64,000 nt of DNA, from contig OZ024741.1 in assembly GCA_964016885.1 (NCBI GenBank), positions 262,012,001 to 262,076,000 of the forward strand. Reading direction: 5' to 3'. A model generated the notes under the pieces. That model ran no database searches and was not told the origin of the DNA. It was given only the letters and a program-made list of their open reading frames with translations. How positions within the stretch are numbered: the stretch's first letter is position 1; each line of letters begins with the position of its first letter. The translations under genes and the position numbers were made by a program. The DNA comes from Eledone cirrhosa (lineage: Eukaryota). Below, piece by piece: positions 1-27,493 of the stretch.

Positions 1-115
1 TTCACAATTTATGATTACACAATATTTTATATTCTCATCTGTAATAGAATTTTAATTAAATTAAATTTATAGGTTAACTAACATTTAAATTAAATTAATT
101 TCTAAAATAATGTTA

Positions 116-2557: not shown

Positions 2558-2907
2558 TGTGATATGGATGATGGACAATTGAAAGAGCTCAACTAAATGT
2601 ATATGGGTTTATAAAATCATACATATATATGTATATACACAAATATAAAATTAATACACACATACAGTACAAAAATACGAATATTTCCGTGAAAATAGGA
2701 GCAAAATTATGTAGATAAATCTACCAAGAGTTTACGGTAGTGTCCAATCCGTATGAAGAACTCAATGTATTCCGGATATCATGGAAAGAAGAGATGTAAT
2801 GAAAAATCACTTTCGGTGAAAGATAAACGGTATACAGAGTCAAGATAAAATATTAAACAAATAATGAATAAAACAATGAAACAGTTCCTTATATTAAACA
2901 AAAAAAG

Positions 2908-3061
2908 TTCATTATTTAACGATCGTTTCTAGGATATATATGTGTTAGAATTGGTATGCATATTCAACAGATCTATGTACAAAATTATACAGAATTATAC
3001 AAACTATCAAGATTAAATATACATACCAACACATATATACGCCGTCTTCAGAAATAATGAA
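2908..3061 (-). ncRNA. Type I hammerhead ribozyme with long stem II (PLE copy 1)
   Basis: Reverse complement of 15842-15995. Confidence 0.8.
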
Positions 3062-3659
3062 ATATATTTATTGATAATAACAACAATTCAAAATTTCAGG
3101 TCCGTTTGGGAACAAAATTGACCAATGAAAATACAAAAGGTTTTATGCCGTTCGGTGTGTGTATATACATGTAACTACCCTTACACATATTTTACAAAAA
3201 TGTATGCTCAACATGTATACGCATACCAAAAGGATGGATGCAAATACAAAATTTCAAGGTTAATGTCTCTGTAAGTTTATAATGCACAGATAAGATGCGT
3301 ATAGACACATAAATATGAAATAAGTGTATACACATATTCTCATACTCACACATATCCGTACAATCACACACACGCGCGCGTATATGCATAAACATACACA
3401 TAATTACGAACATACAAACACACACACACCCCCACTCACATATATATATATGTGGATATCATAAGCACATGGATATTAATTCACTCACATAAACACTGCC
3501 ACACACATTTAGATCAAGATACAGAAATTAGGTGGGAGGGGGGAGAGGTCAGTATTCAACGGTTTGGGCAGACTGCTTATTATAGATGTATCTATAAACT
3601 AAGAAAATAAAAAATAAAAATTAAAAGGAAAGAAAAGAAAAAGAAAAGAAAAAAGAAAT

Positions 3660-3670
3660 ATATCAAGAAA

Positions 3671-3701
<31 letters not shown>

Positions 3702-3706
3702 CATAC

Positions 3707-3739
<33 letters not shown>

Positions 3740-3845
3740 AACACACACATACATATACACACATCCACACTTAGAACATACATACACACACATATATAAA
3801 CATATACATATACTCACATACACACATATACACACATACATATAA

Positions 3846-3896
<51 letters not shown>

Positions 3897-4438
3897 TACA
3901 CATATAATCACACATACTATATAGACACACATATATATACACACATACACGCACATATACATACACATACATACTTATATACATACAGATATACACATAC
4001 ATACCTATATATACACACAAATACATACAGACATACATACATACATACACACAAATACTTACGCATCCATATATCGGTATATACATACAAACACCACTAC
4101 ACTCTCACACAACTCAGACATACAAAGAAAAAGGTATATACCTATACACATATACATATACAAATAGAGATACATATACATATATATATATACATATATA
4201 TACACATACATATATACATATACATATATATATATATATATACATACACATATACACACACATACATACATACACATACATACATGTACACACACATACA
4301 TATACATACATACACACATACACACATACATATATAGTCATACACACACATACACCTACACGAACATACACATACACATATATAAAGATATATATACACA
4401 CACACACATACACACACACACATATATATAAAAAATAA

Positions 4439-4493
<55 letters not shown>

Positions 4494-4826
4494 CATATAC
4501 ATACACACATACATAAACATATATGTACATACATAGACATACATACATACATATACACATATATATACATATATATATACACACATAGACACATACATAC
4601 ATACATACACAACATACATACACACACATATATACTCATACATAGAATTAGATATATATTCATACATACATACGCACTTACATATACTCATATATACAAA
4701 TACATACGCATCCATATATGCGTATATACATACAAACACCACTACACCCTCACACAACTCAGACATACAAAGAAAAAGGCATATACATATACATATATAC
4801 ACACATTAATAGAGATATATATACAC

Positions 4827-4857
<31 letters not shown>

Positions 4858-5066
4858 CATTTATATATATACACCCACACACACATACAACCATAAACAC
4901 ACATACAAATACACACATACACATATATATACACATACATATATATACACACACACAAAAAACAGACATACACATATATATTTTTTTACACACATATATA
5001 CACATATATATACATATACACACCCTCACATATACACACATACACATAAGTTATATTATAATAATA

Positions 5067-5109
<43 letters not shown>

Positions 5110-5348
5110 CGAATATAGACATATATACACACATAGATATACATATATATATACATATACACACACACACACACACACTCACATATATATGTGCGCATAC
5201 GTACATATATACACATACACACATATACTCGTAAACACATACATGTGCATACATGCACATACACACATATACCCACATAGATACGAAGATAGACATATAA
5301 ATAGAGAGACATACATATATATACACACACATATATACATACATACAT

Positions 5349-5393
<45 letters not shown>

Positions 5394-5600
5394 CATACAC
5401 ACATACACGCCCACGCGCATATACACATATACATATATATATACATACACACATACACATACACATATATATACATATGCATATATACACATATATATAT
5501 ACATACACACATATATATACACACAATCTTACATTCTTATTTGCATGCGCATATATGTATTTTTATATTCAGATATAAATACCCAAACATATATACACCT
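3660..5600. repeat. Mosaic (TA)n/(CA)n/(CATA)n microsatellite inside the PLE unit
   Basis: The same mosaic recurs at ~10320-12240 and, inverted, at ~19990-21860 and 14669-15230. Confidence 0.95.
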
Positions 5601-6233
5601 ACCTACATATATATTCTTTCATACATACACGCTTACAAACACAGATGATAATAGTATGGGGGAAAGGGGGGGGGGGGGGTTGGAGAAGGGGATTATAGTA
5701 AATATATGTTTCAAGAAACATAGAATATTATCTGTATCTGGATCCAATGTATGTTTTTACATAGTTTCAGTGTTAGGAAATACAAGAAATAAGGCAAAAT
5801 TTATGCATTTCAAAATAAATAAGTATACCATTAATTATATGTTAACTAAACTAAAGATAGTTAACATATTGATTTCTAAGGTGTAAATTAGTTAGGTTTA
5901 TAATATTTGAAGCAGAATTTTGAAGTTAAATAGTAGTAGAGTATTAATTATAGTATAACTAAATTAAAGTTAATAACGTTATGGTATCAATATTAGGAAA
6001 TGAATTTAGTAATAGGGAAAAAAACAAATAAAGTATTACATCGGTAGTAGAATATAAATTATAGGTTAACTAAATTAAAAATTATATATTAATTTCTATA
6101 GTATATGTTAATTAGGTATATAATAAATAAAACAGATATTGTATTTTATCAATAGCAGAATATAATTATATGCAAATAGAAATCAAAATTAATACATATA
6201 CATATACATATACATACACATACATATATATAC

Positions 6234-6282
<49 letters not shown>

Positions 6283-6769
6283 TACACATACATATACATA
6301 CATACATATACATATTTTTTCAAAAATTGCAAAGAATATATTAACTAGGTATACATCCAAAACACATCCCATTCTATGATTACATGACATTCTGCAATCC
6401 GTCTGTATAAGGATACTAATTTTAAGCCAATTAAATTAAATTTTAGGTTGACTAAATTTAAAACCAAATTATAAATATATTTCTAAAATGTATATTAATT
6501 AGGTCTATAATACTAAAAATTATTTCTCTGTCATTGGATACACGATATTTTGTTATATTTTATCTGTAAAGGAATTTTAATAAAAGGTTTAAATAAATTA
6601 AAATTAATCTATAAATTAAATTACTAAGTATATATTAGTAATATTTAAAGGTTTTTCACAATTTATGATTACACAATATTTTATATTCTCATCTGTAATA
6701 GAATTTTAATTAAATTAAATTTATAGGTTAACTAACATTTAAATTAAATTAATTTCTAAAATAATGTTA

Positions 6770-9211
6770 TTAATTAGGTTTATAATATTTAAATGTTTTT
6801 TTTAGTTTATGATTACACGATATAATTAATTCCTGTCGTTTATTTAATAGGATATCCTTAGATTTCATTATTTCAAATAGTTCTTGGGAACATAATCTAC
6901 ATTCATTTCTATTATTTTGATAAGGGGTGGCTCTTTTGAGCACACTCCAGGTCAAATCATATTCTATATTCTTATTTTTATAACTATTGATTTTTTCTGC
7001 TAGAGATGTTGTATTAGCCAGTGCGGCATTTTTAAAACTATGCTTGTGGGTATTAAACCTTGTCTTAAAATTGTTAGAGGTAGCTCCTATATATGAGCAA
7101 ATAGAATCTTTAGTTTTAACATTACATTTATAGACTATGTTGTTAACAAGACAATTCCCTTTTAATGGGCAGTTTGCTTTGTTTCTACAGTTACAACCTT
7201 TCGTTAATTCTGTATTTGAGGAGATATTATGGTTAATTTGATGTACTGGTGGTATACTTATGGTTTTCTTACATTTATATGCATTATAGGCACTTATATT
7301 TTGTTTTATGTTATTTGTTGTAGAGTATGAGAATTTAACTGTAGACCTATTTAAGATCTGATGGTATTTGTGGTTTGGCGGGAAGTTTTTCTCTAGGATA
7401 TAAAAAAATTTTTTAGCAATATTATCCTTAATTTGTAAATTAAATGGAGCATTATACCAGGTAACCCGTCTATTACGGTTTCTATGTTGTTTATTATTTT
7501 TATTATTTTTATAGGTTGTATCGTGATGTTTACTAGGAGGATTAATGTTAATGATCTCACCACAACTATTTTTAGTTATATTTGTAGATTTAGGTGTTTT
7601 ATCCTTTTTATTAGGAGTTTTATTATTAATATTTATTAGAGTTGTATGATGAGTAGTTTTTTGAGAGTTACTATATTTTATATTAGAAGATTTGGTATTT
7701 TGGGGTATAGTGTGGGTGGCATTTAGGTGTGTACTTTTCATTTGGTGTTTGTTGGTAATATTAGGTTGTATGCTTTTAGTATTTTTAGTAGAAGGTATAT
7801 ATTCTAATCTATTTTTGTGGCCACTTCTATCTAGAGCTTCGTTATAGAAGGTCGCATTTTTATCAAATACATCTTGGTTAGAAGAAAGGTTAGAAATTCT
7901 AAGTGATATATTATATGCAAGGTTTTTAAGGATAGATTTAGGGTGATTAGATTGTGAGTGTATGTAATGTAAGTTTTGGTTTGGTTTATGGTAAGGTTGG
8001 TAGATACCCGTAGCTAAATCTAAAGTTATATCTAGGAAATTTACTACTTTACTTGTTTTTTCAAAAGTAATATGAAGATTATAATAGTCTTTAAGGAAAG
8101 TTCTAATATGTTTTTTGTTTTTTTCAATTTCTGAAAGGCTAAGGTTGTTAGAAAGAAGAAGACAGTCATCACGATATAAACCACCTTTGAGGTGGGGAAA
8201 GGAGGCATTTATGTTGAAAAGGAGAAAGAGGCCCACAAGATCAGTAATTTGGGCGGAATCGCTTGAACCCATAGTAATATCAAATAGATTACTATATGTG
8301 TTTCTGGTCCAGTATTCATTCTGAAATTCAATAAGTGTTAGTCTAGCATGTGTAATAATATTAATGTCATCCAAAGTTAAGTTAGATCTATTTTTAGCAA
8401 ATATCAATGCTTTGTTCAGGAGTATAGGTGATATAGAAGAGTAGTAATTATCTATATGAAATTGTAGAAATGAAGCAGAAGATTTACATCTAATATTTTT
8501 AAACCAGTTAATTACCTGGGAGGTGTTTTCCCAGAGTGGTAAAATAACGTGTTTTCTTATTTGTGGGATGACTCTATCCAGAATTTTTTTGCTAATTATT
8601 CCAATATCTGATTTGGAGGGACATATAAGTCTAATAGAAGGATTTGAGTTAAAGTTTGATTTATGATCCTTCAGGTTGAAGTGTGGTCTTTTCAATGCCA
8701 AAGGTTCAGTTCTATCTTCAATGTTTAGTTTTTTTACTATGTTGTGTGTTTTGTTGTTGATGTTGGTGAGTGACGCATTATTAGATTTTTTATAATTTTT
8801 TCTGAGTTCTTTATATATGAACTCATTATAATGTTCAATATCCATATGATACAAGTTACCAGTTTTGTCCGAGTGGACATGGATTTTTTTAGACTTTTTT
8901 AGGTCCAATAGGGTAGAATCAAGGTCCTTTTGAAAGACGGATTTATACTTTTTAAATTTGAGGTGTTTAATTAAATTAAAAAGGTCTTTCTCGAAGTCTT
9001 CAAGTAAAAAGTTGTGTGGTGGATTCTTGTAAGTATTGAAATCATACATATATTTCCGATCTGCTTGTTTAGATTTTTTATCGAAGTGGTAGGCTCTCCA
9101 TCTAACCCTTCTGATAAAATTATTAGTTTTTTGAATCATAAGGAGTAAGAAGTCATCCTTAGAAGGTATTGGTATGTTTTTTAAAGAGGTTCCCAAATAT
9201 TGTTTTTCCAT
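6770..9211 (-). CDS. Penelope-like element RT + GIY-YIG endonuclease, copy 2
   Basis: Translation matches copy 1 except one N/K change (IAKNFF vs IAKKFF); offset 6654 bp. Confidence 0.93.
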   Translation of the reverse strand: MEKQYLGTSLKNIPIPSKDDFLLLMIQKTNNFIRRVRWRAYHFDKKSKQADRKYMYDFNTYKNPPHNFLLEDFEKDLFNLIKHLKFKKYKSVFQKDLDSTLLDLKKSKKIHVHSDKTGNLYHMDIEHYNEFIYKELRKNYKKSNNASLTNINNKTHNIVKKLNIEDRTEPLALKRPHFNLKDHKSNFNSNPSIRLICPSKSDIGIISKKILDRVIPQIRKHVILPLWENTSQVINWFKNIRCKSSASFLQFHIDNYYSSISPILLNKALIFAKNRSNLTLDDINIITHARLTLIEFQNEYWTRNTYSNLFDITMGSSDSAQITDLVGLFLLFNINASFPHLKGGLYRDDCLLLSNNLSLSEIEKNKKHIRTFLKDYYNLHITFEKTSKVVNFLDITLDLATGIYQPYHKPNQNLHYIHSQSNHPKSILKNLAYNISLRISNLSSNQDVFDKNATFYNEALDRSGHKNRLEYIPSTKNTKSIQPNITNKHQMKSTHLNATHTIPQNTKSSNIKYSNSQKTTHHTTLININNKTPNKKDKTPKSTNITKNSCGEIININPPSKHHDTTYKNNKNNKQHRNRNRRVTWYNAPFNLQIKDNIAKKFFYILEKNFPPNHKYHQILNRSTVKFSYSTTNNIKQNISAYNAYKCKKTISIPPVHQINHNISSNTELTKGCNCRNKANCPLKGNCLVNNIVYKCNVKTKDSICSYIGATSNNFKTRFNTHKHSFKNAALANTTSLAEKINSYKNKNIEYDLTWSVLKRATPYQNNRNECRLCSQELFEIMKSKDILLNKRQELIISCNHKLKKTFKYYKPN

Positions 9212-9561
9212 TGTGATATGGATGATGGACAATTGAAAGAGCTCAACTAAATGTATATGGGTTTATAAAATCATACATATATATGTATATACACAAATAT
9301 AAAATTAATACACACATACAGTACAAAAATACGAATATTTCCGTGAAAATAGGAGCAAAATTATGTAGATAAATCTACCAAGAGTTTACGGTAGTGTCCA
9401 ATCCGTATGAAGAACTCAATGTATTCCGGATATCATGGAAAGAAGAGATGTAATGAAAAATCACTTTCGGTGAAAGATAAACGGTATACAGAGTCAAGAT
9501 AAAATATTAAACAAATAATGAATAAAACAATGAAACAGTTCCTTATATTAAACAAAAAAAG

Positions 9562-9715
9562 TTCATTATTTAACGATCGTTTCTAGGATATATATGTGTT
9601 AGAATTGGTATGCATATTCAACAGATCTATGTACAAAATTATACAGAATTATACAAACTATCAAGATTAAATATACATACCAACACATATATACGCCGTC
9701 TTCAGAAATAATGAA
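9562..9715 (-). ncRNA. Type I hammerhead ribozyme with long stem II (PLE copy 2)
   Basis: Reverse complement of 15842-15995. Confidence 0.8.
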
Positions 9716-10319
9716 ATATATTTATTGATAATAACAACAATTCAAAATTTCAGGTCCGTTTGGGAACAAAATTGACCAATGAAAATACAAAAGGTTTTAT
9801 GCCGTTCGGTGTGTGTATATACATGTAACTACCCTTACACATATTTTACAAAAATGTATGCTCAACATGTATACGCATACCAAAAGGATGGATGCAAATA
9901 CAAAATTTCAAGGTTAATGTCTCTGTAAGATTATAATGCACAGATAAGATGCGTATAGACACATAAATATGAAATAAGTGTATACACATATTCTCATACT
10001 CACACATATCCGTACAATCACACACACGCGCGCGTATATGCATAAACATACACATAATTACGAACATACAAACACACACACACCCCCACTCACATATATA
10101 TATATGTGGATATCATAAGCACATGGATATTAATTCACTCACATAAACACTGCCACACACATTTAGATCAAGATACAGAAATTAGGTGGGAGGGGGGAGA
10201 GGTCAGTATTCAACGGTTTGGGCAGACTGCTTATTATAGATGTATCTATAAACTAAGTAAATAAAAAATAAAAATTAAAAGGAAAGAAAAGAAAAAGAAA
10301 AGAAAAAAGAAATATATCA

Positions 10320-10324
10320 AGAAA

Positions 10325-10355
<31 letters not shown>

Positions 10356-10360
10356 CATAC

Positions 10361-10393
<33 letters not shown>

Positions 10394-10493
10394 AACACAC
10401 ACATACATATACACACATCCACACTTAGAACATACATACACACACATATATAAACATATACATATACATACATACACACATATACACACATAC

Positions 10494-10544
<51 letters not shown>

Positions 10545-11086
10545 TACACATATAATCACACATACTATATAGACACACATATATATACACACATACACGC
10601 ACATATACATACACATACATACTTATATACATACAGATATACACATACATACCTATATATACACACAAATACATACAGACATACATACATACATACACAC
10701 AAATACTTACGCATCCATATATCGGTATATACATACAAACACCACTACACTCTCACACAACTCAGACATACAAAGAAAAAGGTATATACCTATACACATA
10801 TACATATACAAATAGAGATACATATACATATATATATATACATATATATACACATACATATATACATATACATATATATATATATATATACATACACATA
10901 TACACACACATACATACATACACATACATACATGTACACACACATACATATACATACATACACACATACACACATACATATATAGTCATACACACACATA
11001 CACCTACACGAACATACACATACACATATATAAAGATATATATACACACACACACATACACACACACACATATATATAAAAAATAA

Positions 11087-11125
<39 letters not shown>

Positions 11126-11696
11126 CATATACATACACACATACATAAACATATATGTACATACATAGACATACATACATACATATACACATATATATAC
11201 ATATATATATACACACATAGACACATACATACATACATACACAACATACATACACACACATATATACTCATACATAGAATTAGATATATATTCATACATA
11301 CATACGCACTTACATATACTCATATATACAAATACATACGCATCCATATATGCGTATATACATACAAACACCACTACACCCTCACACAACTCAGACATAC
11401 AAAGAAAAAGGCATATACATATACATATATACACACATTAATAGAGATATATATACACATATATATATATATATATATATACACATACATTTATATATAT
11501 ACACCCACACACACATACAACCATAAACACACATACAAATACACACATACACATATATATACACATACATATATATACACACACACAAAAAACAGACATA
11601 CACATATATATTTTTTTACACACATATATACACATATATATACATATACACACCCTCACATATACACACATACACATAAGTTATATTATAATAATA

Positions 11697-11749
<53 letters not shown>

Positions 11750-11988
11750 CGAATATAGACATATATACACACATAGATATACATATATATATACATATAC
11801 ACACACACACACACACACTCACATATATATGTGCGCATACGTACATATATACACATACACACATATACTCGTAAACACATACATGTGCATACATGCACAT
11901 ACACACATATACCCACATAGATACGAAGATAGACATATAAATAGAGAGACATACATATATATACACACACATATATACATACATACAT

Positions 11989-12035
<47 letters not shown>

Positions 12036-12240
12036 CATACACACATACACGCCCACGCGCATATACACATATACATATATATATACATACACACATACAC
12101 ATACACATATATATACATATGCATATATACACATATATATATACATACACACATATATATACACACAATCTTACATTCTTATTTGCATGCGCATATATGT
12201 ATTTTTATATTCAGATATAAATACCCAAACATATATACAC
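10320..12240. repeat. Mosaic microsatellite inside the PLE unit
   Basis: Copy of 3660-5600. Confidence 0.95.
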
Positions 12241-12870
12241 CTACCTACATATATATTCTTTCATACATACACGCTTACAAACACAGATGATAATAGTATG
12301 GGGGAAAGGGGGGGGGGTGGAGAAGGGGATTATAGTAAATATATGTTTCAAGAAACATAGAATATTATCTGTATCTGGATCCAATGTATGTTTTTACATA
12401 GTTTCAGTGTTAGGAAATACAAGAAATAAGGCAAAATTTATGCATTTCAAAATAAATAAGTATACCATTAATTATATGTTAACTAAACTAAAGATAGTTA
12501 ACATATTGATTTCTAAGGTGTAAATTAGTTAGGTTTATAATATTTGAAGCAGAATTTTGAAGTTAAATAGTAGTAGAGTATTAATTATAGTATAACTAAA
12601 TTAAAGTTAATAACGTTATGGTATCAATATTAGGAAATGAATTTAGTAATAGGGAAAAAAACAAATAAAGTATTACATCGGTAGTAGAATATAAATTATA
12701 GGTTAACTAAATTAAAAATTATATATTAATTTCTATAGTATATGTTAATTAGGTATATAATAAATAAAACAGATATTGTATTTTATCAATAGCAGAATAT
12801 AATTATATGCAAATAGAAATCAAAATTAATACATATACATATACATATACATACACATACATATATATAC

Positions 12871-12919
<49 letters not shown>

Positions 12920-13406
12920 TACACATACATATACATACATACATATACATATTTTTTCAAAAATTGCAAAGAATATATTAACTAGGTATACATCCAAAAC
13001 ACATCCCATTCTATGATTACATGACATTCTGCAATCCGTCTGTATAAGGATACTAATTTTAAGCCAATTAAATTAAATTTTAGGTTGACTAAATTTAAAA
13101 CCAAATTATAAATATATTTCTAAAATGTATATTAATTAGGTCTATAATACTAAAAATTATTTCTCTGTCATTGGATACACGATATTTTGTTATATTTTAT
13201 CTGTAAAGGAATTTTAATAAAAGGTTTAAATAAATTAAAATTAATCTATAAATTAAATTACTAAGTATATATTAGTAATATTTAAAGGTTTTTCACAATT
13301 TATGATTACACAATATTTTATATTCTCATCTGTAATAGAATTTTAATTAAATTAAATTTATAGGTTAACTAACATTTAAATTAAATTAATTTCTAAAATA
13401 ATGTTA

Positions 13407-14636
13407 TTAATTAGGTTTATAATATTTAAATGTTTTTTTTAGTTTATGATTACACGATATAATTAATTCCTGTCGTTTATTTAATAGGATATCCTTAGAT
13501 TTCATTATTTCAAATAGTTCTTGGGAACATAATCTACATTCATTTCTATTATTTTGATAAGGGGTGGCTCTTTTGAGCACACTCCAGGTCAAATCATATT
13601 CTATATTCTTATTTTTATAACTATTGATTTTTTCTGCTAGAGATGTTGTATTAGCCAGTGCGGCATTTTTAAAACTATTTAGAGGTAGCTCCTATATATG
13701 AGCAAATAGAATCTTTAGTTTTAACATTACATTTATAGACTATGTTGTTAACAAGACAATTCCCTTTTAATGGGCAGTTTGCTTTGTTTCTACAGTTACA
13801 ACCTTTCGTTAATTCTGTATTTGAGGAGATATTATGGTTAATTTGATGTACTGGTGGTATACTTATGGTTTTCTTACATTTATATGCATTATAGGCACTT
13901 ATATTTTGTTTTATGTTATTTGTTGTAGAGTATGAGAATTTAACTGTAGACCTATTTAAGATTTGATGGTATTTGTGGTTTGGCGGGAAGTTTTTCTCTA
14001 GGATATAAAAAATTTTTTAGCAATATTATCCTTAATTTGTAAATTAAATGGAGCATTATACCAGGTAACCCGTCTATTACGGTTTCTATGTTGTTTATTA
14101 TTTTTATTATTTTTATAGGTTGTATCGTGATGTTTACTAGGAGGATTAATGTTAATGATCTCACCACAACTATTTTTAGTTATATTTGTAGATTTAGGTG
14201 TTTTATCCTTTTTATTAGGAGTTTTATTATTAATATTTATTAGAGTTGTATGATGAGTAGTTTTTTGAGAGTTACTATATTTTATATTAGAAGATTTGGT
14301 ATTTTGGGGTATAGTGTGGGTGGCATTTAGGTGTGTACTTTTCATTTGGTGTTTGTTGGTAATATTAGGTTGTATGCTTTTAGTATTTTTAGTAGAAGGT
14401 ATATATTCTAATCTATTTTTGTGGCCACTTCTATCTAGAGCTTCGTTATAGAAGGTCGCATTTTTATCAAATACATCTTGGTTAGAAGAAAGGTTAGAAA
14501 TTCTAAGTGATATATTATATGCAAGGTTTTTAAGGATAGATTTAGGGTGATTAGATTGTGAGTGTATGTAATGTAAGTTTTGGTTTGGTTTATGGTAAGG
14601 TTCGTAGATACCCGTAGCTAAATCTAAAGTTATATC
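13407..14636 (-). pseudogene. 5'-truncated, frameshifted copy of the PLE ORF (C-terminal half)
   Basis: Matches copy 1 positions ~116-1378. Has a 32-bp deletion at 13678/13679 in the endonuclease region, a 1-bp loss in the A/T run near 14010 and a few substitutions. Stops at the inversion junction. Confidence 0.92.
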
Positions 14637-14999
14637 TATGTATATGTATATAAATCTAAAGTTATATCATATGTATATGTATATATGTATGTGTATATAT
14701 ATGTATATATATATATGTATATGTATCTCTATTTGTATATGTATATGTGTATAGGTATATACCTTTTTCTTTGTATGTCTGAGTTGTGTGAGAGTGTAGT
14801 GGTGTTTGTATGTATATACCGATATATGGATGCGTAAGTATTTGTGTGTATGTATGTATGTATGTCTGTATGTATTTGTGTGTATATATAGGTATGTATG
14901 TGTATATCTGTATGTATATAAGTATGTATGTGTATGTATATGTGCGTGTATGTGTGTATATATATGTGTGTCTATATAGTATGTGTGATTATATGTGTA

Positions 15000-15068
<69 letters not shown>

Positions 15069-15168
15069 GTATGTGTGTATATGTGTGTATGTGTGTATAT
15101 GTATATGTTTATATATGTGTGTGTATGTATGTTCTAAGTGTGGATGTGTGTATATGTATGTGTGTGTT

Positions 15169-15201
<33 letters not shown>

Positions 15202-15841
15202 GTATGTATGTGTATATATATATATATATATTTTCTTGATATATTTCTTTTTTCTTTTCTTTTTCTTTTCTTTCCTTTTAATTTTTATTTTTTATTTTCT
15301 TAGTTTATAGATACATCTATAATAAGCAGTCTGCCCAAACCGTTGAATACTGACCTCTCCCCCCCCTCCCACCTAATTTCTGTATCTTGATCTAAATGTG
15401 TGTGGCAGTGTTTATGTGAGTGAATTAATATCCATGTGCTTATGATATCCACATATATATATATGTGAGTGGGGGTGTGTGTGTGTTTGTATGTTCGTAA
15501 TTATGTTATGTTTATGCATATACGCGCGCGTGTGTGTGATTGTACGGATATGTGTGAGTATGAGAATATGTGTATACACTTATTTCATATTTATGTGTCT
15601 ATACGCATCTTATCTGTGCATTATAAACTTACAGAGACATTAACCTTGAAATTTTGTATTTGCATCCATCCTTTTGGTATGCGTATACATGTTGAGCATA
15701 CATTTTTGTAAAATATGTGTAAGGGTAGTTACATGTATATACACACACCGAACGGCATAAAACCTTTTGTATTTTTATTGGTCAATTTTGTTCCCAAACG
15801 GACCTGAAATTTTGAATTGTTGTTATTATCAATAAATATAT

Positions 15842-15995
15842 TTCATTATTTCTGAAGACGGCGTATATATGTGTTGGTATGTATATTTAATCTTGATAGT
15901 TTGTATAATTCTGTATAATTTTGTACATAGATCTGTTGAATATGCATACCAATTCTAACACATATATATCCTAGAAACGATCGTTAAATAATGAA
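15842..15995 (+). ncRNA. Type I hammerhead ribozyme with long stem II (5' pLTR)
   Basis: Stem I TTCATTATTT/AAATAATGAA (10 perfect bp), core CTGAAGA...GAAA, palindromic stem III ACGATCGT, GUU cleavage triplet (cut after 15985), ~115-nt stem II insert with TATATATGTGTT/AACACATATATA and GGTATGTATATT/AATATGCATACC pairings. Confidence 0.82.
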
Positions 15996-16345
15996 CTTTT
16001 TTTGTTTAATATAAGGAACTGTTTCATTGTTTTATTCATTATTTGTTTAATATTTTATCTTGACTCTGTATACCGTTTATCTTTCACCGAAAGTGATTTT
16101 TTATTACATCTCTTCTTTCCATGATATCCGGAATACATTGAGTTCTTCATACGGATTGGACACTACCGTAAACTCTTGGTAGATTTATCTACATAATTTT
16201 GCTCCTATTTTCACGGAAATATTCGTATTTTTGTACTGTATGTGTGTATTAATTTTATATTTGTGTATATACATATATATGTATGATTTTATAAACCCAT
16301 ATACATTTAGTTGAGCTCTTTCAATTGTCCATCATCCATATCACA

Positions 16346-18787
16346 ATGGAAAAACAATATTTGGGAACCTCTTTAAAAAACATACCAATACCTTCTAAGG
16401 ATGACTTCTTACTCCTTATGATTCAAAAAACTAATAATTTTATCAGAAGGGTTAGATGGAGAGCCTACCACTTCGATAAAAAATCTAAACAAGCAGATCG
16501 GAAATATATGTATGATTTCAATACTTACAAGAATCCACCACACAACTTTTTACTTGAAGACTTCGAGAAAGACCTTTTTAATTTAATTAAACACCTCAAA
16601 TTTAAAAAGTATAAATCCGTCTTTCAAAAGGACCTTGATTCTACCCTATTGGACCTAAAAAAGTCTAAAAAAATCCATGTCCACTCGGACAAAACTGGTA
16701 ACTTGTATCATATGGATATTGAACATTATAATGAGTTCATATATAAAGAACTCAGAAAAAATTATAAAAAATCTAATAATGCGTCACTCACCAACATCAA
16801 CAACAAAACACACAACATAGTAAAAAAACTAAACATTGAAGATAGAACTGAACCTTTGGCATTGAAAAGACCACACTTCAACCTGAAGGATCATAAATCA
16901 AACTTTAACTCAAATCCTTCTATTAGACTTATATGTCCCTCCAAATCAGATATTGGAATAATTAGCAAAAAAATTCTGGATAGAGTCATCCCACAAATAA
17001 GAAAACACGTTATTTTACCACTCTGGGAAAACACCTCCCAGGTAATTAACTGGTTTAAAAATATTAGATGTAAATCTTCTGCTTCATTTCTACAATTTCA
17101 TATAGATAATTACTACTCTTCTATATCACCTATACTCCTGAACAAAGCATTGATATTTGCTAAAAATAGATCTAACTTAACTTTGGATGACATTAATATT
17201 ATTACACATGCTAGACTAACACTTATTGAATTTCAGAATGAATACTGGACCAGAAACACATATAGTAATCTATTTGATATTACTATGGGTTCAAGCGATT
17301 CCGCCCAAATTACTGATCTTGTGGGCCTCTTTCTCCTTTTCAACATAAATGCCTCCTTTCCCCACCTCAAAGGTGGTTTATATCGTGATGACTGTCTTCT
17401 TCTTTCTAACAACCTTAGCCTTTCAGAAATTGAAAAAAACAAAAAACATATTAGAACTTTCCTTAAAGACTATTATAATCTTCATATTACTTTTGAAAAA
17501 ACAAGTAAAGTAGTAAATTTCCTAGATATAACTTTAGATTTAGCTACGGGTATCTACCAACCTTACCATAAACCAAACCAAAACTTACATTACATACACT
17601 CACAATCTAATCACCCTAAATCTATCCTTAAAAACCTTGCATATAATATATCACTTAGAATTTCTAACCTTTCTTCTAACCAAGATGTATTTGATAAAAA
17701 TGCGACCTTCTATAACGAAGCTCTAGATAGAAGTGGCCACAAAAATAGATTAGAATATATACCTTCTACTAAAAATACTAAAAGCATACAACCTAATATT
17801 ACCAACAAACACCAAATGAAAAGTACACACCTAAATGCCACCCACACTATACCCCAAAATACCAAATCTTCTAATATAAAATATAGTAACTCTCAAAAAA
17901 CTACTCATCATACAACTCTAATAAATATTAATAATAAAACTCCTAATAAAAAGGATAAAACACCTAAATCTACAAATATAACTAAAAATAGTTGTGGTGA
18001 GATCATTAACATTAATCCTCCTAGTAAACATCACGATACAACCTATAAAAATAATAAAAATAATAAACAACATAGAAACCGTAATAGACGGGTTACCTGG
18101 TATAATGCTCCATTTAATTTACAAATTAAGGATAATATTGCTAAAAAATTTTTTTATATCCTAGAGAAAAACTTCCCGCCAAACCACAAATACCATCAGA
18201 TCTTAAATAGGTCTACAGTTAAATTCTCATACTCTACAACAAATAACATAAAACAAAATATAAGTGCCTATAATGCATATAAATGTAAGAAAACCATAAG
18301 TATACCACCAGTACATCAAATTAACCATAATATCTCCTCAAATACAGAATTAACGAAAGGTTGTAACTGTAGAAACAAAGCAAACTGCCCATTAAAAGGG
18401 AATTGTCTTGTTAACAACATAGTCTATAAATGTAATGTTAAAACTAAAGATTCTATTTGCTCATATATAGGAGCTACCTCTAACAATTTTAAGACAAGGT
18501 TTAATACCCACAAGCATAGTTTTAAAAATGCCGCACTGGCTAATACAACATCTCTAGCAGAAAAAATCAATAGTTATAAAAATAAGAATATAGAATATGA
18601 TTTGACCTGGAGTGTGCTCAAAAGAGCCACCCCTTATCAAAATAATAGAAATGAATGTAGATTATGTTCCCAAGAACTATTTGAAATAATGAAATCTAAG
18701 GATATCCTATTAAATAAACGACAGGAATTAATTATATCGTGTAATCATAAACTAAAAAAAACATTTAAATATTATAAACCTAATTAA
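16346..18787 (+). CDS. Penelope-like element RT + GIY-YIG endonuclease, copy 3 (inverted arm)
   Basis: Same translation as copy 2. YRDD at 17381-17392, ATG at 16346, TAA stop. Confidence 0.93.
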   Translation: MEKQYLGTSLKNIPIPSKDDFLLLMIQKTNNFIRRVRWRAYHFDKKSKQADRKYMYDFNTYKNPPHNFLLEDFEKDLFNLIKHLKFKKYKSVFQKDLDSTLLDLKKSKKIHVHSDKTGNLYHMDIEHYNEFIYKELRKNYKKSNNASLTNINNKTHNIVKKLNIEDRTEPLALKRPHFNLKDHKSNFNSNPSIRLICPSKSDIGIISKKILDRVIPQIRKHVILPLWENTSQVINWFKNIRCKSSASFLQFHIDNYYSSISPILLNKALIFAKNRSNLTLDDINIITHARLTLIEFQNEYWTRNTYSNLFDITMGSSDSAQITDLVGLFLLFNINASFPHLKGGLYRDDCLLLSNNLSLSEIEKNKKHIRTFLKDYYNLHITFEKTSKVVNFLDITLDLATGIYQPYHKPNQNLHYIHSQSNHPKSILKNLAYNISLRISNLSSNQDVFDKNATFYNEALDRSGHKNRLEYIPSTKNTKSIQPNITNKHQMKSTHLNATHTIPQNTKSSNIKYSNSQKTTHHTTLININNKTPNKKDKTPKSTNITKNSCGEIININPPSKHHDTTYKNNKNNKQHRNRNRRVTWYNAPFNLQIKDNIAKKFFYILEKNFPPNHKYHQILNRSTVKFSYSTTNNIKQNISAYNAYKCKKTISIPPVHQINHNISSNTELTKGCNCRNKANCPLKGNCLVNNIVYKCNVKTKDSICSYIGATSNNFKTRFNTHKHSFKNAALANTTSLAEKINSYKNKNIEYDLTWSVLKRATPYQNNRNECRLCSQELFEIMKSKDILLNKRQELIISCNHKLKKTFKYYKPN

Positions 18788-19274
18788 TAACATTATTTTA
18801 GAAATTAATTTAATTTAAATGTTAGTTAACCTATAAATTTAATTTAATTAAAATTCTATTACAGATGAGAATATAAAATATTGTGTAATCATAAATTGTG
18901 AAAAACCTTTAAATATTACTAATATATACTTAGTAATTTAATTTATAGATTAATTTTAATTTATTTAAACCTTTTATTAAAATTCCTTTACAGATAAAAT
19001 ATAACAAAATATCGTGTATCCAATGACAGAGAAATAATTTTTAGTATTATAGACCTAATTAATATACATTTTAGAAATATATTTATAATTTGGTTTTAAA
19101 TTTAGTCAACCTAAAATTTAATTTAATTGGCTTAAAATTAGTATCCTTATACAGACGGATTGCAGAATGTCATGTAATCATAGAATGGGATGTGTTTTGG
19201 ATGTATACCTAGTTAATATATTCTTTGCAATTTTTGAAAAAATATGTATATGTATGTATGTATATGTATGTGTA

Positions 19275-19323
<49 letters not shown>

Positions 19324-19730
19324 GTATATATATGTATGTGTATGTATATGTATATGTATATGTATTAATTTTGATTTCTATTTGCATATAATTATATTCT
19401 GCTATTGATAAAATACAATATCTGTTTTATTTATTATATACCTAATTAACATATACTATAGAAATTAATATATAATTTTTAATTTAGTTAACCTATAATT
19501 TATATTCTACTACCGATGTAATACTTTATTTGTTTTTTTCCCTATTACTAAATTCATTTCCTAATATTGATACCATAACGTTATTAACTTTAATTTAGTT
19601 ATACTATAATTAATACTCTACTACTATTTAACTTCAAAATTCTGCTTCAAATATTATAAACCTAACTAATTTACACCTTAGAAATCAATATGTTAACTAT
19701 CTTTAGTTTAGTTAACATATAATTAATGGT
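18734..19730 (+). repeat. Degenerate ~130-160-bp repeats overlapping the PLE stop codon and 3' UTR
   Basis: ATATCGTGTAATCATAAA-like starts at 18734, 18878, 19009 and 19167; ACCTAATTAA..TAGAAAT..TTAGTTAACCT-like motifs at ~18778, 19053, 19440 and 19660. Confidence 0.75.
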
Positions 19731-19989
19731 ATACTTATTTATTTTGAAATGCATAAATTTTGCCTTATTTCTTGTATTTCCTAACACTGAAACTATGTAA
19801 AAACATACATTGGATCCAGATACAGATAATATTCTATGTTTCTTGAAACATATATTTACTATAATCCCCTTCTCCAACCCCCCCCCCCTTTCCCCCATAC
19901 TATTATCATCTGTGTTTGTAAGCGTGTATGTATGAAAGAATATATATGTAGGTAGGTGTATATATGTTTGGGTATTTATATCTGAATAT

Positions 19990-20160
19990 AAAAATACATA
20001 TATGCGCATGCAAATAAGAATGTAAGATTGTGTGTATATATATGTGTGTATGTATATATATATGTGTATATATGCATATGTATATATATGTGTATGTGTA
20101 TGTGTGTATGTATATATATATGTATATGTGTATATGCGCGTGGGCGTGTATGTGTGTATG

Positions 20161-20205
<45 letters not shown>

Positions 20206-20444
20206 ATGTATGTATGTATATATGTGTGTGTATATATATGTATGTCTCTCTATTTATATGTCTATCTTCGTATCTATGTGGGTATATGTGTGTATGTGCA
20301 TGTATGCACATGTATGTGTTTACGAGTATATGTGTGTATGTGTATATATGTACGTATGCGCACATATATATGTGAGTGTGTGTGTGTGTGTGTGTATATG
20401 TATATATATATGTATATCTATGTGTGTATATATGTCTATATTCG

Positions 20445-20487
<43 letters not shown>

Positions 20488-20696
20488 TATTATTATAATA
20501 TAACTTATGTGTATGTGTGTATATGTGAGGGTGTGTATATGTATATATATGTGTATATATGTGTGTAAAAAAATATATATGTGTATGTCTGTTTTTTGTG
20601 TGTGTGTATATATATGTATGTGTATATATATGTGTATGTGTGTATTTGTATGTGTGTTTATGGTTGTATGTGTGTGTGGGTGTATATATATAAATG

Positions 20697-20727
<31 letters not shown>

Positions 20728-21060
20728 GTGTATATATATCTCTATTAATGTGTGTATATATGTATATGTATATGCCTTTTTCTTTGTATGTCTGAGTTGT
20801 GTGAGGGTGTAGTGGTGTTTGTATGTATATACGCATATATGGATGCGTATGTATTTGTATATATGAGTATATGTAAGTGCGTATGTATGTATGAATATAT
20901 ATCTAATTCTATGTATGAGTATATATGTGTGTGTATGTATGTTGTGTATGTATGTATGTATGTGTCTATGTGTGTATATATATATGTATATATATGTGTA
21001 TATGTATGTATGTATGTCTATGTATGTACATATATGTTTATGTATGTGTGTATGTATATG

Positions 21061-21091
<31 letters not shown>

Positions 21092-21635
21092 CTTTATTTT
21101 TTATATATATGTGTGTGTGTGTATGTGTGTGTGTGTATATATATCTTTATATATGTGTATGTGTATGTTCGTGTAGGTGTATGTGTGTGTATGACTATAT
21201 ATGTATGTGTGTATGTGTGTATGTATGTATATGTATGTGTGTGTACATGTATGTATGTGTATGTATGTATGTGTGTGTATATGTGTATGTATATATATAT
21301 ATATATATGTATATGTATATATGTATGTGTATATATATGTATATATATATATGTATATGTATCTCTATTTGTATATGTATATGTGTATAGGTATATACCT
21401 TTTTCTTTGTATGTCTGAGTTGTGTGAGAGTGTAGTGGTGTTTGTATGTATATACCGATATATGGATGCGTAAGTATTTGTGTGTATGTATGTATGTATG
21501 TCTGTATGTATTTGTGTGTATATATAGGTATGTATGTGTATATCTGTATGTATATAAGTATGTATGTGTATGTATATGTGCGTGTATGTGTGTATATATA
21601 TGTGTGTCTATATAGTATGTGTGATTATATGTGTA

Positions 21636-21692
<57 letters not shown>

Positions 21693-21792
21693 GTATGTGT
21701 GTATATGTGTGTATGTGTGTATATGTATATGTTTATATATGTGTGTGTATGTATGTTCTAAGTGTGGATGTGTGTATATGTATGTGTGTGTT

Positions 21793-21827
<35 letters not shown>

Positions 21828-21832
21828 GTATG

Positions 21833-21860
<28 letters not shown>
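19990..21860. repeat. Mosaic (TA)n/(TG)n/(TATG)n microsatellite in the PLE 3' UTR
   Basis: Inverted copy of 3660-5600. Confidence 0.95.
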
Positions 21861-21863
<3 letters not shown>

Positions 21864-22472
21864 TTTCTTGATATATTTCTTTTTTCTTTTCTTTTTCTTT
21901 TCTTTCCTTTTAATTTTTATTTTTTATTTTCTTAGTTTATAGATACATCTATAATAAGCAGTCTGCCCAAACCGTTGAATACTGACCTCTCCCCCCTCCC
22001 ACCTAATTTCTGTATCTTGATCTAAATGTGTGTGGCAGTGTTTATGTGAGTGAATTAATATCCATGTGCTTATGATATCCACATATATATATATGTGAGT
22101 GGGGGTGTGTGTGTGTTTGTATGTTCGTAATTATGTGTATGTTTATGCATATACGCGCGCGTGTGTGTGATTGTACGGATATGTGTGAGTATGAGAATAT
22201 GTGTATACACTTATTTCATATTTATGTGTCTATACGCATCTTATCTGTGCATTATAAACTTACAGAGACATTAACCTTGAAATTTTGTATTTGCATCCAT
22301 CCTTTTGGTATGCGTATACATGTTGAGCATACATTTTTGTAAAATATGTGTAAGGGTAGTTACATGTATATACACACACCGAACGGCATAAAACCTTTTG
22401 TATTTTCATTGGTCAATTTTGTTCCCAAACGGACCTGAAATTTTGAATTGTTGTTATTATCAATAAATATAT

Positions 22473-22626
22473 TTCATTATTTCTGAAGACGGCGTATATA
22501 TGTGTTGGTATGTATATTTAATCTTGATAGTTTGTATAATTCTGTATAATTTTGTACATAGATCTGTTGAATATGCATACCAATTCTAACACATATATAT
22601 CCTAGAAACGATCGTTAAATAATGAA
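22473..22626 (+). ncRNA. Type I hammerhead ribozyme with long stem II (3' pLTR)
   Basis: Same sequence as 15842-15995; the element ends 73 nt after the predicted cut site (22616). Confidence 0.82.
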
Positions 22627-22711
22627 CTTTTTTTGTTTAATATAAGGAACTGTTTCATTGTTTTATTCATTATTTGTTTAATATTTTATATATATATATA
22701 TATGTATATGC

Positions 22712-23142
22712 ATGCTACTGTACGTCTGTATACATATATGTATGTACGTATACATACATACTTACATTTAAGTAAGTGCCGTACTAAGAGTGAGAAATGA
22801 AATTTCGTTTTCATTTTATTACAACTCATCGTTCTCGGTGCGCCTGACCGATTTAACTCACTCGATATGCAAATTAGGCTGCTCAGCCGTTAATTTTCAT
22901 AAGGAAAGTATATACTTTCGAACGTTCAACTATCTGGCACATGGGTATACGGTGCTGATGATAGCTAACAAGCTTGAAACTAGTACATCGTTCCTGTGTC
23001 AGTGTTGAACAAAAAGGTGACGTGGTTGCCTTAACACCGTGCGGCATAAATTCAGGCTGTTCAGTTTGTTTACAAACGAACAAAGCGGGCGCTATAATAA
23101 GCGTCCGCTAAACTGATGCGTACATATATATATGTGTACCTG

Positions 23143-23211
<69 letters not shown>

Positions 23212-23320
23212 TACTGTACGTCTGTATACATATATGTATGTACGTATACATACATACTTACATTTAAGTAAGTGCCGTACTAAGAGTGAGAAATGAAATT
23301 TCGTTTTCATTTTATTACAA

Positions 23321-26880: not shown

Positions 26881-27118
26881 TTTATGCTGCCACTCACTCT
26901 GTTAAAGGAATGTGTTATCACTGTATTCATCCTGTTACTGCTATTTGTTGGTCAAGGCGGCATTTTCATTCTTGCGTGGCGGCCAGTCTGCCGGAACTCT
27001 GCTGTTACAGTCTTTGAAGTAAGTTCGAAGTGAATAAAGCAATACAAAAATACAACAGTAAAAAAAATTAAAAGATAAATCCAATCTTTACAAAGATAAA
27101 GATGCGATAAGAAAATAA

Positions 27119-27304
27119 ATAATTGTTTCTACTTTTCGCACAAGGCCAGCAATTATCCCAGTGTATTACTGGTACTTTATTTTATCGACCCCCGTAAGGA
27201 TGAAAGGCAAGGTTAACCTCGACGGGATTTGAACTCAGACCATAAAGGGGGGTAACTCTTTGCTACAAAGCATGGCGTCAGACCCTCTACCGATACTGCC
27301 AATC
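27119..27304 (-). mobile_element. SINE copy 2
   Basis: Reverse-complement homologue of 26699-26880. Confidence 0.8.
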
Positions 27305-27315
27305 CAAGAAAATAT

Positions 27316-27493
27316 ATAATTGTTTCTATTTTTGGTACAAGGCCAGCAATTACCCAGTACATTACTGGTACTTTATTTTATCGACTCCGTAAGGATGAAA
27401 GGCAAAGTTAACCTCGGCCGGATTTGAACTCAGATCGTAAAGGGACGTAACTATGCTGGAAAGCATGTCCGACCCTCTACCGATACTGCCAAT
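27316..27493 (-). mobile_element. SINE copy 3 (tandem with copy 2)
   Basis: Reverse-complement homologue of 26699-26880. Confidence 0.8.

What the first reader, a model, noticed from the sequence alone, without database searches (positions are those of the whole stretch)
17087..17125. First RT catalytic aspartate appears replaced by histidine in all three intact ORFs
Seen: motif A reads FLQFHIDNYYSSI. The His codon CAT is at 17099-17101 (also 1802-1804 and 8456-8458 on the minus strand), one base from GAT. YRDD and the GIY-YIG motifs look intact. Known: PLE motif A is typically FDIxxFYPSI/FDVxSLF, with an essential Asp. Inference: either these copies encode a dead RT with a possibly live endonuclease and were mobilised in trans from one mutant template, or the family has a shifted active site using the Asp two residues downstream.
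Basis: partly seen in the sequence, partly recalled or inferred. Interest (0 to 1): 0.75.

Follow-up and report, generated by a model that had tools for sequence, protein, structure and literature searches.

The report
Private Asp-to-His mutation in one retroelement cluster
Three near-identical copies of a very abundant Penelope-like retrotransposon, all in one local cluster, carry a one-base change that replaces a reverse-transcriptase aspartate kept by almost every other copy and relative, so this is an ordinary, likely inactivating, locus-specific mutation.

Summary
All three 820-codon ORFs read FLQFHIDNYYSSI, with CAT at 17099-17101 (+), 8456-8458 (-) and 1802-1804 (-).

The His is not a family trait.
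- In the window's own 3.0-Gb genome, the 21-mer around the codon occurs 885 times with GAT and 4 times with CAT.
- Three of the four CAT sites are the window's. The fourth lies in a decayed fragment 89.5% identical, without the window's haplotype.
- In 120 homologues from other organisms the column is Asp in 119 and Asn in 1.
- The Asp two residues downstream sits in a variable column (Val 65, Glu 17, Cys 13 and others). A shifted active site is therefore not supported.

The three copies are units of one composite insertion of a canonical Penelope-like element with a C-terminal GIY-YIG endonuclease. It is not a Naiad. A minus-strand tandem array lies head-to-head with a plus-strand unit, and both outer ends abut (TA)n.

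The units differ at 2-3 sites per 3.6 kb. They also share two private synonymous changes found nowhere else in the genome.

The unit tree and a 5.2-kb tract with no differences suggest the mutation arose in place and spread by local DNA exchange. A single insertion copied from an already mutant RNA remains possible. The finding is of low interest.

The parts
17099..17101 (+). CAT (His259) in RT motif A of unit D; other copies of the family read GAT here
8456..8458 (-). the same His codon in unit B
1802..1804 (-). the same His codon in unit A
16325..18787 (+). ORF of unit D (820 codons from TTG; first ATG at 16346): TERT-like RT, disordered linker (residues 485-579), Cys-rich linker and C-terminal GIY-YIG endonuclease
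6770..9232 (-). ORF of unit B, protein identical to that of unit D
116..2578 (-). ORF of unit A, one residue different (K to N, base 18148-equivalent)
17381..17392 (+). YRDD (residues 353-356), RT motif C, intact; at the turn of the hairpin 348-353/356-362 in the model
14639..21275 (+). unit D, a full repeat unit of about 6.64 kb
21276..22689 (+). partial unit E (pseudo-LTR, repeats 14639-16058); ends against (TA)n
10905..14638 (-). unit C, 5'-truncated at the equivalent of 17523, head-to-head with unit D. It lacks motif A, keeps the ancestral A at the 18199-equivalent, and has its own changes, including a 1-base deletion
4257..10904 (-). unit B, a full unit; no differences from unit D over 16103-21275
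1..4256 (-). unit A. It runs on to the left of the window and is followed by a partial unit F that ends against (TA)n about 3.96 kb before the window's first base
16976..16976 (+). private synonymous C (Leu218); the 33-mer occurs only in units A, B and D in the whole genome
18199..18199 (+). private synonymous G (Gln625); the 33-mer occurs only in units A, B and D, not in unit C

Best explanation
The His is a private G-to-C substitution carried only by the three full units of one composite insertion of a Penelope-like retrotransposon. It is predicted to inactivate their reverse transcriptase, and it likely arose in place and was spread among the units by local DNA exchange. Shown: the family, in this genome and in other organisms, keeps Asp at this position, and the three copies are near-identical neighbours within one tandem/inverted array. 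Inferred: His at the motif A metal-binding position abolishes polymerisation, so these units cannot copy themselves. Also inferred: the change arose after the array was founded and spread by unequal crossing-over within the tandem array and by gene conversion between the inverted arms.
For: 1. Private to the locus. Of 30 loci fetched by DNA similarity, the 3 window copies read CAT and the 27 others GAT. Exact 33-mer with CAT: 3 in 3.0 Gb, all in the window. Exact 21-mer: 885 with GAT, 4 with CAT. The fourth CAT (C5:57911547) lies in a fragment 89.5% identical with 29 gap openings. It lacks the window's states at 16976, 18097 and 18199, so it is an independent hit.
2. Asp is conserved. An older subfamily about 95% identical also reads FDID. 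dN/dS between the window ORF and 8 of 8 such copies is 0.17-0.24. In 120 homologues the column is D 119, N 1, while the column of D261 is V 65, E 17, C 13, I 7, K 6, D 3 and others.
3. Position in the fold. In the AlphaFold model (pLDDT 86.5, pTM 0.84), His259 closes strand 253-260 and YRDD sits at the hairpin 348-353/356-362. The best PDB fold matches are telomerase RTs.
4. One clonal array. Units C-B-A-F lie on the minus strand, head-to-head with D-E on the plus strand, and both outer ends abut (TA)n. All 9 dispersed copies fetched with flanks show the same head-to-head partner. Array mates elsewhere are also near-identical and share private variants, against a median of 4.2 differences per kb between unlinked copies.
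5. Spread in place. Units A, B and D share 16976C, 17099C and 18199G, found nowhere else. Unit C of the same array keeps the ancestral 18199A. B and D have 0 differences over 16103-21275 (5.2 kb) but 5 substitutions in 15093-16102. A has 4 private substitutions and 1 indel within 17523-21275. This is a ladder-like tree, not a star.
6. Other sources of RT exist. 9 of the 27 young Asp-bearing copies have the full open frame.
Against: No activity was measured, so 'dead RT' rests on conservation and on what is known of RT motif A. One example is the catalytically inactive D712A mutant of human TERT (PMC6774720, passages). That D712 is the motif A Asp is my recall.
No tool gave a residue-by-residue superposition on a solved RT, and sequence searches of the PDB found no RT.
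Unit C does not cover motif A, so the order of 17099C relative to the founding of the array is inferred only from the co-distributed 18199G.
Unit C could have been copied from a different RNA, or be an older neighbouring insertion. In either case a mutant template would explain A, B and D equally well.
The 5' region might simply mutate faster than the rest, which would weaken the conversion-tract argument.
The window's C could not be checked in raw reads. Contigs of four public runs all read G at 17099 (13 contigs in all), but contigs drop rare variants.
Confidence: 0.6

Rival explanations
1. The whole composite (units A, B and D) was laid down in one retrotransposition event from an RNA that already carried CAT. 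The reverse transcriptase was supplied in trans by Asp-bearing copies. The few differences between units arose later.
For: Tandem plus inverted 5'-truncated structures are the normal product of PLE insertion (PMC8557442, passages). All 9 dispersed copies examined with flanks have such a structure. Array mates elsewhere share private variants, for example 5 in the C4:1917 pair. At least 9 of 27 sampled copies have an intact Asp-bearing ORF that could supply RT.
Against: No source copy or sister insertion with the haplotype exists in the assembly. Unit C of the same array has the ancestral 18199A. The differences between units are not star-like: B and D have 0 over 5.2 kb, while A has 4 substitutions and 1 indel, and C has 5 substitutions and 3 indels, in 17523-21275.
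Confidence: 0.3
2. The family, or this lineage of it, uses a variant active site in which His259, or Asp261 two residues downstream, takes over metal binding, so the copies encode a working RT.
For: The ORFs are fully open and all other motifs are intact. Asp261 is present.
Against: His is absent from all other copies examined and is outnumbered 885 to 4 genome-wide. The column is Asp in 119 of 120 homologues. The Asp261 column is variable, and Asp261 is equally present in the Asp259 copies (FDID), so it is not a compensating change. No daughter insertions exist.
Confidence: 0.02
3. The C at 17099 is an assembly or polishing artefact in a highly repeated element, and the real sequence is GAT.
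For: The family has hundreds to thousands of near-identical copies, which makes for difficult assembly. Every public contig laid over the site reads G.
Against: The same C appears in three separately assembled units, together with two further private bases (16976C, 18199G) that form one coherent haplotype. A random error would not recur in this way. Contigs cannot show a variant present in 3 of about 900 copies.
Confidence: 0.05

Closest known systems
Canonical EN+ Penelope-like elements with a Cys-rich linker (Neptune/Nematis type), as described by Craig et al. 2021 (PMC8557442, passages read)
   Same: A single ORF holds a TERT-like RT followed by a C-terminal GIY-YIG endonuclease. [quoted passage not shown] Other shared features are partial tandems that form pseudo-LTRs, an inverted 5'-truncated copy at the 5' end, frequent 5' truncation, and insertion next to (TA)n.
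   Different: No hammerhead ribozyme was found by Rfam at E up to 0.1. The repeat unit is long (about 6.64 kb) and includes internal repeats. A disordered linker of about 95 residues lies between RT and EN. The clade was not assigned, because no reference sequences were at hand. The three window copies have His in place of the motif A Asp.
Naiad PLEs
   Same: An RT of the same superfamily, the motif A pattern FDIxxFYPSI, (TA)n targets, a Cys linker and complex tandem/inverted insertions (PMC8557442).
   Different: Naiads have the GIY-YIG endonuclease at the N-terminus. Here, and in at least 113 of the 120 homologues that have residues in the EN columns, it is C-terminal.
Telomerase reverse transcriptase with a motif A Asp substitution (such as human TERT D712A)
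   Same: TERTs are the closest solved folds. Substitution of the essential Asp gives a catalytically inactive enzyme (PMC6774720, passages).
   Different: That substitution is to Ala, in a different protein. No Asp-to-His data were seen. The equivalence of D712 with motif A is recalled, not computed here.

Membership tests
Penelope-like element, canonical C-terminal EN+ type | RT domain related to telomerase RT | tested here: met
   Model pLDDT 86.5. The top Foldseek PDB hits are TERTs (6zdq, 3du5, 9swn, 7lma) at E about 1e-8. No Pfam RVT hit.
Penelope-like element, canonical C-terminal EN+ type | C-terminal GIY-YIG endonuclease with two Cys between GIY and YIG (CCHH) | tested here: met
   The sequence reads IVYKCNVKTKDSICSYIG...RFNTHKHSF. 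Y701, Y714, G716, R725, H729, E784 and N797 match near-invariant columns of homologues. No Pfam GIY-YIG hit, so this rests on motifs and alignment.
Penelope-like element, canonical C-terminal EN+ type | Cys-rich linker upstream of GIY-YIG (Neptune/Nematis type) | tested here: met
   C680, C682, C688 and C694 are conserved in 117-118 of 118-120 homologues. The feature is as described in PMC8557442.
Penelope-like element, canonical C-terminal EN+ type | Partial tandem (pseudo-LTR) and inverted 5'-truncated copy at the 5' end | tested here: met
   14639-16058 is repeated at 21276-22689. Unit C is inverted and truncated at the 17523-equivalent. The same architecture is seen in 9 of 9 dispersed copies.
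Penelope-like element, canonical C-terminal EN+ type | Hammerhead ribozyme in the pseudo-LTR | tested here: not met
   Rfam scan of 1-24000 at E up to 0.1 gave no hammerhead, only sub-threshold miRNA matches, which I take to reflect the AT-rich internal repeats. A divergent motif could be missed.
Penelope-like element, canonical C-terminal EN+ type | Insertion bias for microsatellites | tested here: met
   Both outer ends of the composite abut (TA)n. Only this locus was read base by base.
Naiad PLE | N-terminal GIY-YIG endonuclease followed by a CxC domain and a C-terminal RT | tested here: not met
   The RT occupies about residues 1-470 and the endonuclease about 680-800.
Catalytically competent RT | Asp in motif A together with the two Asp of motif C | tested here: not met
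   The motif C YRDD is present. Motif A has His259 where 119 of 120 homologues, and the GAT-bearing genomic copies, have Asp.

The most novel reading that the evidence does not exclude
The array with a dead RT but an intact endonuclease is not mere debris. A protein with an unbroken frame, intact nucleic-acid-binding surfaces and a live GIY-YIG nuclease, but no polymerase, is kept and amplified at one locus. It acts on the family, for instance as a dominant-negative competitor for PLE RNA or target sites, or His259 supports an unusual metal-binding chemistry.
Probability: 0.03. Interest if true: 0.55.

Novelty: already known. Interest (0 to 1): 0.1.

Why it matters
It matters little for enzyme mechanism: the family's active site is conventional, and the His is a private lesion. 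Two minor points are useful. First, the locus is a clean natural example of how units of a PLE tandem/inverted composite stay alike and can share a new mutation. This bears on using copy identity to date PLE insertions. Second, the family is very young and very abundant (at least 885 copies holding this motif, many with open frames), and it supplies natural Asp and His versions for a controlled RT assay.

Tried and rejected
- Pfam scan of the ORF: no family above threshold. The only hit was DUF7108_C at E 0.28.
- PDB sequence searches with the 121-sequence profile and with residues 190-426 alone: no RT matched. No residue-level alignment to a solved RT was therefore obtained.
- Rfam at E up to 0.1: no hammerhead, only sub-threshold miRNA matches, which I take to reflect the AT-rich repeats.
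- Public runs: 14 coded runs were listed and no RNA holder was listed.
- Contigs of X1, X2, X4 and X5 laid on 16940-17140: all read G at 17099 and T at 16976. Because contigs drop rare variants, this cannot test whether the window's C is real.
- Raw-read RAD-seq runs X12-X14: the tool could not be reached in four tries, so no raw reads were examined.
- Earlier notes of this scan: none for this genome.
- A large palindromic segmental duplication was considered as the origin of the two arms, because a 320-450-bp repeat flanks both ends in mirrored orientation. It was not pursued. The left flank holds that repeat in both orientations, and head-to-head pairs are the rule for this family.

Full report
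OBSERVATION. The window holds three open frames of 820 codons: 16325-18787 (+), 6770-9232 (-) and 116-2578 (-). Two give the same protein (P0001). The third differs by one residue, K to N. All three read FLQFHIDNYYSSI. The His codon CAT is at 17099-17101, and on the minus strand at 8456-8458 and 1802-1804. His is residue 259 counted from the first TTG; the first ATG is at 16346. YRDD (353-356) and the endonuclease motifs are intact.

WHAT THE ELEMENT IS. Pfam gives nothing above threshold, and sequence searches of the PDB find no RT. A search of the large protein collection found 300 proteins at E up to 0.001 among 8000 scored candidates, with the best at 567 bits. I aligned the 120 best-listed with the query. 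The AlphaFold model built on that alignment is confident (pLDDT 86.5, pTM 0.84), apart from a disordered stretch at 485-579 and a short one at 663-674. Its best matches among solved structures are telomerase reverse transcriptases: Candida 6zdq, Tribolium 3du5, yeast 9swn and Tetrahymena 7lma, at E about 1e-8.

The C-terminal quarter carries a Cys-rich linker (C680, C682, C688, C694) and a GIY-YIG core with two Cys between the two motifs. The R, H, E and N residues follow, all in columns that are near-invariant among the homologues. Passages of Craig et al. 2021 (PMC8557442) describe canonical EN+ Penelope-like elements as RT plus a C-terminal GIY-YIG with a CCHH motif. They describe the extra Cys linker as a mark of the Neptune and Nematis clades, and of Naiads. 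Naiads are the clade with the endonuclease at the N-terminus. This element is therefore a canonical C-terminal EN+ PLE, not a Naiad. I could not assign the clade.

IS HIS A FAMILY TRAIT? It is not.
- A DNA search of the window's own genome (3.0 Gb; the window is C2:262012001-262076000) returned at least 2283 first-look candidates. Forty were scored, and they gave 43 matches, the full-length ones at 99-100% identity.
- Of the 30 loci delivered, the three that are the window itself read CAT and the other 27 read GAT.
- The exact 33-mer with CAT occurs three times in the genome, all in the window.
- The shorter 21-mer occurs 885 times with GAT and 4 times with CAT.
- The fourth CAT, at C5:57911547, sits in a fragment 89.5% identical with 29 gap openings. 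It has the family's usual bases at the window's other private sites, so it is an unrelated hit in a decayed copy.
- An older subfamily about 95% identical (eight loci found by the GAT pattern) also has the Asp. dN/dS between the window ORF and each of these eight copies is 0.17-0.24, so the ORF evolved under purifying selection with Asp in place.
- Among the 120 homologues from other organisms, the column aligned with His259 is Asp in 119 and Asn in 1.
The Asp-bearing genomic copies read FDID, so Asp261 is not a compensating change.
- In the model, residue 259 closes the beta-strand 253-260, and YRDD sits at the turn of the hairpin 348-353/356-362. By my knowledge of RT folds, this is the usual arrangement of motifs A and C in the palm of an RT. 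No residue-level superposition was possible.
- Contigs of four public runs with four different organism labels all read G at 17099 (2, 9, 1 and 1 contigs) and T at 16976. This agrees with the family state but cannot test a variant present in 3 of about 900 copies.

WHY THREE COPIES SHARE IT. The three ORFs are not three insertions.
- The plus-strand stretch 14639-22689 aligns with the minus-strand stretch 10904-2845 at 99.1%, and with 4256 to beyond the window's start at 98.9%.
- 14639-16058 is repeated in direct orientation at 21276-22689.
- A 5'-truncated unit, starting at the equivalent of 17523, occupies 14638-10905.
- The locus therefore reads, on the minus strand, C (truncated), B, A and a partial F. 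Head-to-head with this, on the plus strand, lie D and a partial E. The unit is about 6.64 kb.
- Both outer ends run into (TA)n.
- This is the partial-tandem plus inverted-5'-truncated arrangement that PMC8557442 describes for PLEs. All 9 dispersed copies that I fetched with flanks show an inverted partner at their 5' end.
- Units of other arrays are also nearly identical to each other. The five units on C6 differ at 1-6 sites per 3.6 kb. The pair at C4:191.7 Mb shows no differences and shares 5 private variants. Unlinked copies differ by a median of 4.2 sites per kb.

WHEN THE CHANGE AROSE. Within the ORF, the window units differ from every other sampled copy at three sites: 16976C (synonymous), 17099C (Asp to His) and 18199G (synonymous). 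A fourth site, 18097C (synonymous), is shared with two other places. The 33-mers around 16976C and 18199G occur only in units A, B and D in the whole genome.

Unit C covers 18199 and has the ancestral A there. It also has its own changes: 17558G, a one-base deletion at 18149, and 18484-18485. B and D show no difference from 16103 to 21275 but 5 substitutions between 15093 and 16102. A has four private substitutions and one indel between 17523 and 21275.

The units thus form a ladder (C, then A, then B with D), not the star expected if all were copied at once and then drifted. The long tract without differences between the inverted B and D looks like recent gene conversion. I therefore favour this course: the three private changes arose in one unit after the array was founded, and they spread by unequal crossing-over and by conversion between the arms.

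The alternative is that A, B and D were copied in one event from an RNA that already carried CAT, with RT supplied in trans. At least 9 of the 27 sampled young copies have a full open frame with Asp. This alternative is not excluded, because unit C does not cover motif A and might derive from another template or an older insertion. In either case nothing in the assembly shows that the His-bearing haplotype ever moved elsewhere.

CONSEQUENCE. By established knowledge of polymerases of this fold, the motif A Asp binds the catalytic metal. In human TERT the substitution D712A gives the standard catalytically inactive enzyme (PMC6774720, passages). That D712 is the motif A residue is my recall. 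The three units are therefore predicted to encode an RT-dead protein with an intact endonuclease. This is inferred, not measured.

VERDICT. The family-wide variant active site is rejected, and the dead-RT reading is supported as a prediction. 'Three copies' reduces to one young clonal array. This is an ordinary private missense mutation in a copy of a known kind of retroelement. An assembly artefact is unlikely, because three units share a coherent three-base private haplotype, but raw reads could not be examined.

Noticed in passing
window 31247-64000: A 16-bp satellite (unit GTTTCGACTTACGAGT, about 2054 copies, 82% matches) fills the right half of the window and runs off its end.
   Followed up: no
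window 19878-21275 and 14639-15223 (and equivalents in units A-C): The non-coding part of each PLE unit holds internal repeats 73-80% alike over stretches of about 330-1300 bases. They make up much of the unusually long 6.64-kb unit and draw sub-threshold miRNA matches in Rfam.
   Followed up: partly
window 16103-21275 versus 4257-9440 (unit D versus unit B): There are no differences over 5.2 kb between inverted units, but 5 substitutions in the adjoining 1 kb (15093-16102). This looks like a recent gene-conversion tract between the arms.
   Followed up: partly
window 22816-23266 and L043:5253-6025 (left of the window): A 320-450-bp repeat bounded by (TA)n lies just outside both ends of the composite, mirrored. 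On the left it is present in both orientations as a palindrome. It could be a target-associated repeat, a foldback element or a trace of duplication.
   Followed up: partly
window 17777-18061 (+), residues 485-579 of the ORF: A low-complexity stretch rich in Asn, Lys, Thr and His lies between RT and endonuclease and is predicted disordered (pLDDT about 30). Most homologues are about 700 residues long and were aligned by BLAST over only 54-60% of the query.
   Followed up: no
window 1-24000: Rfam found no hammerhead ribozyme at E up to 0.1, although canonical EN+ PLEs usually carry one in the pseudo-LTR.
   Followed up: partly
G000:C5:57911547 (L065:5048): An independent CAT at the same codon lies in an old PLE fragment, 89.5% identical and truncated at both ends.
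   Followed up: yes
G000:C6:49530106-49557324 (L009-L013): A tandem array of five full units of the same element lies at about 6.65-kb spacing, all with Asp and four with the full open frame. Long arrays seem common for this family.
   Followed up: partly
window 27109-27493: A 195-bp unit is repeated twice (87% matches) between the PLE composite and the satellite.
   Followed up: no
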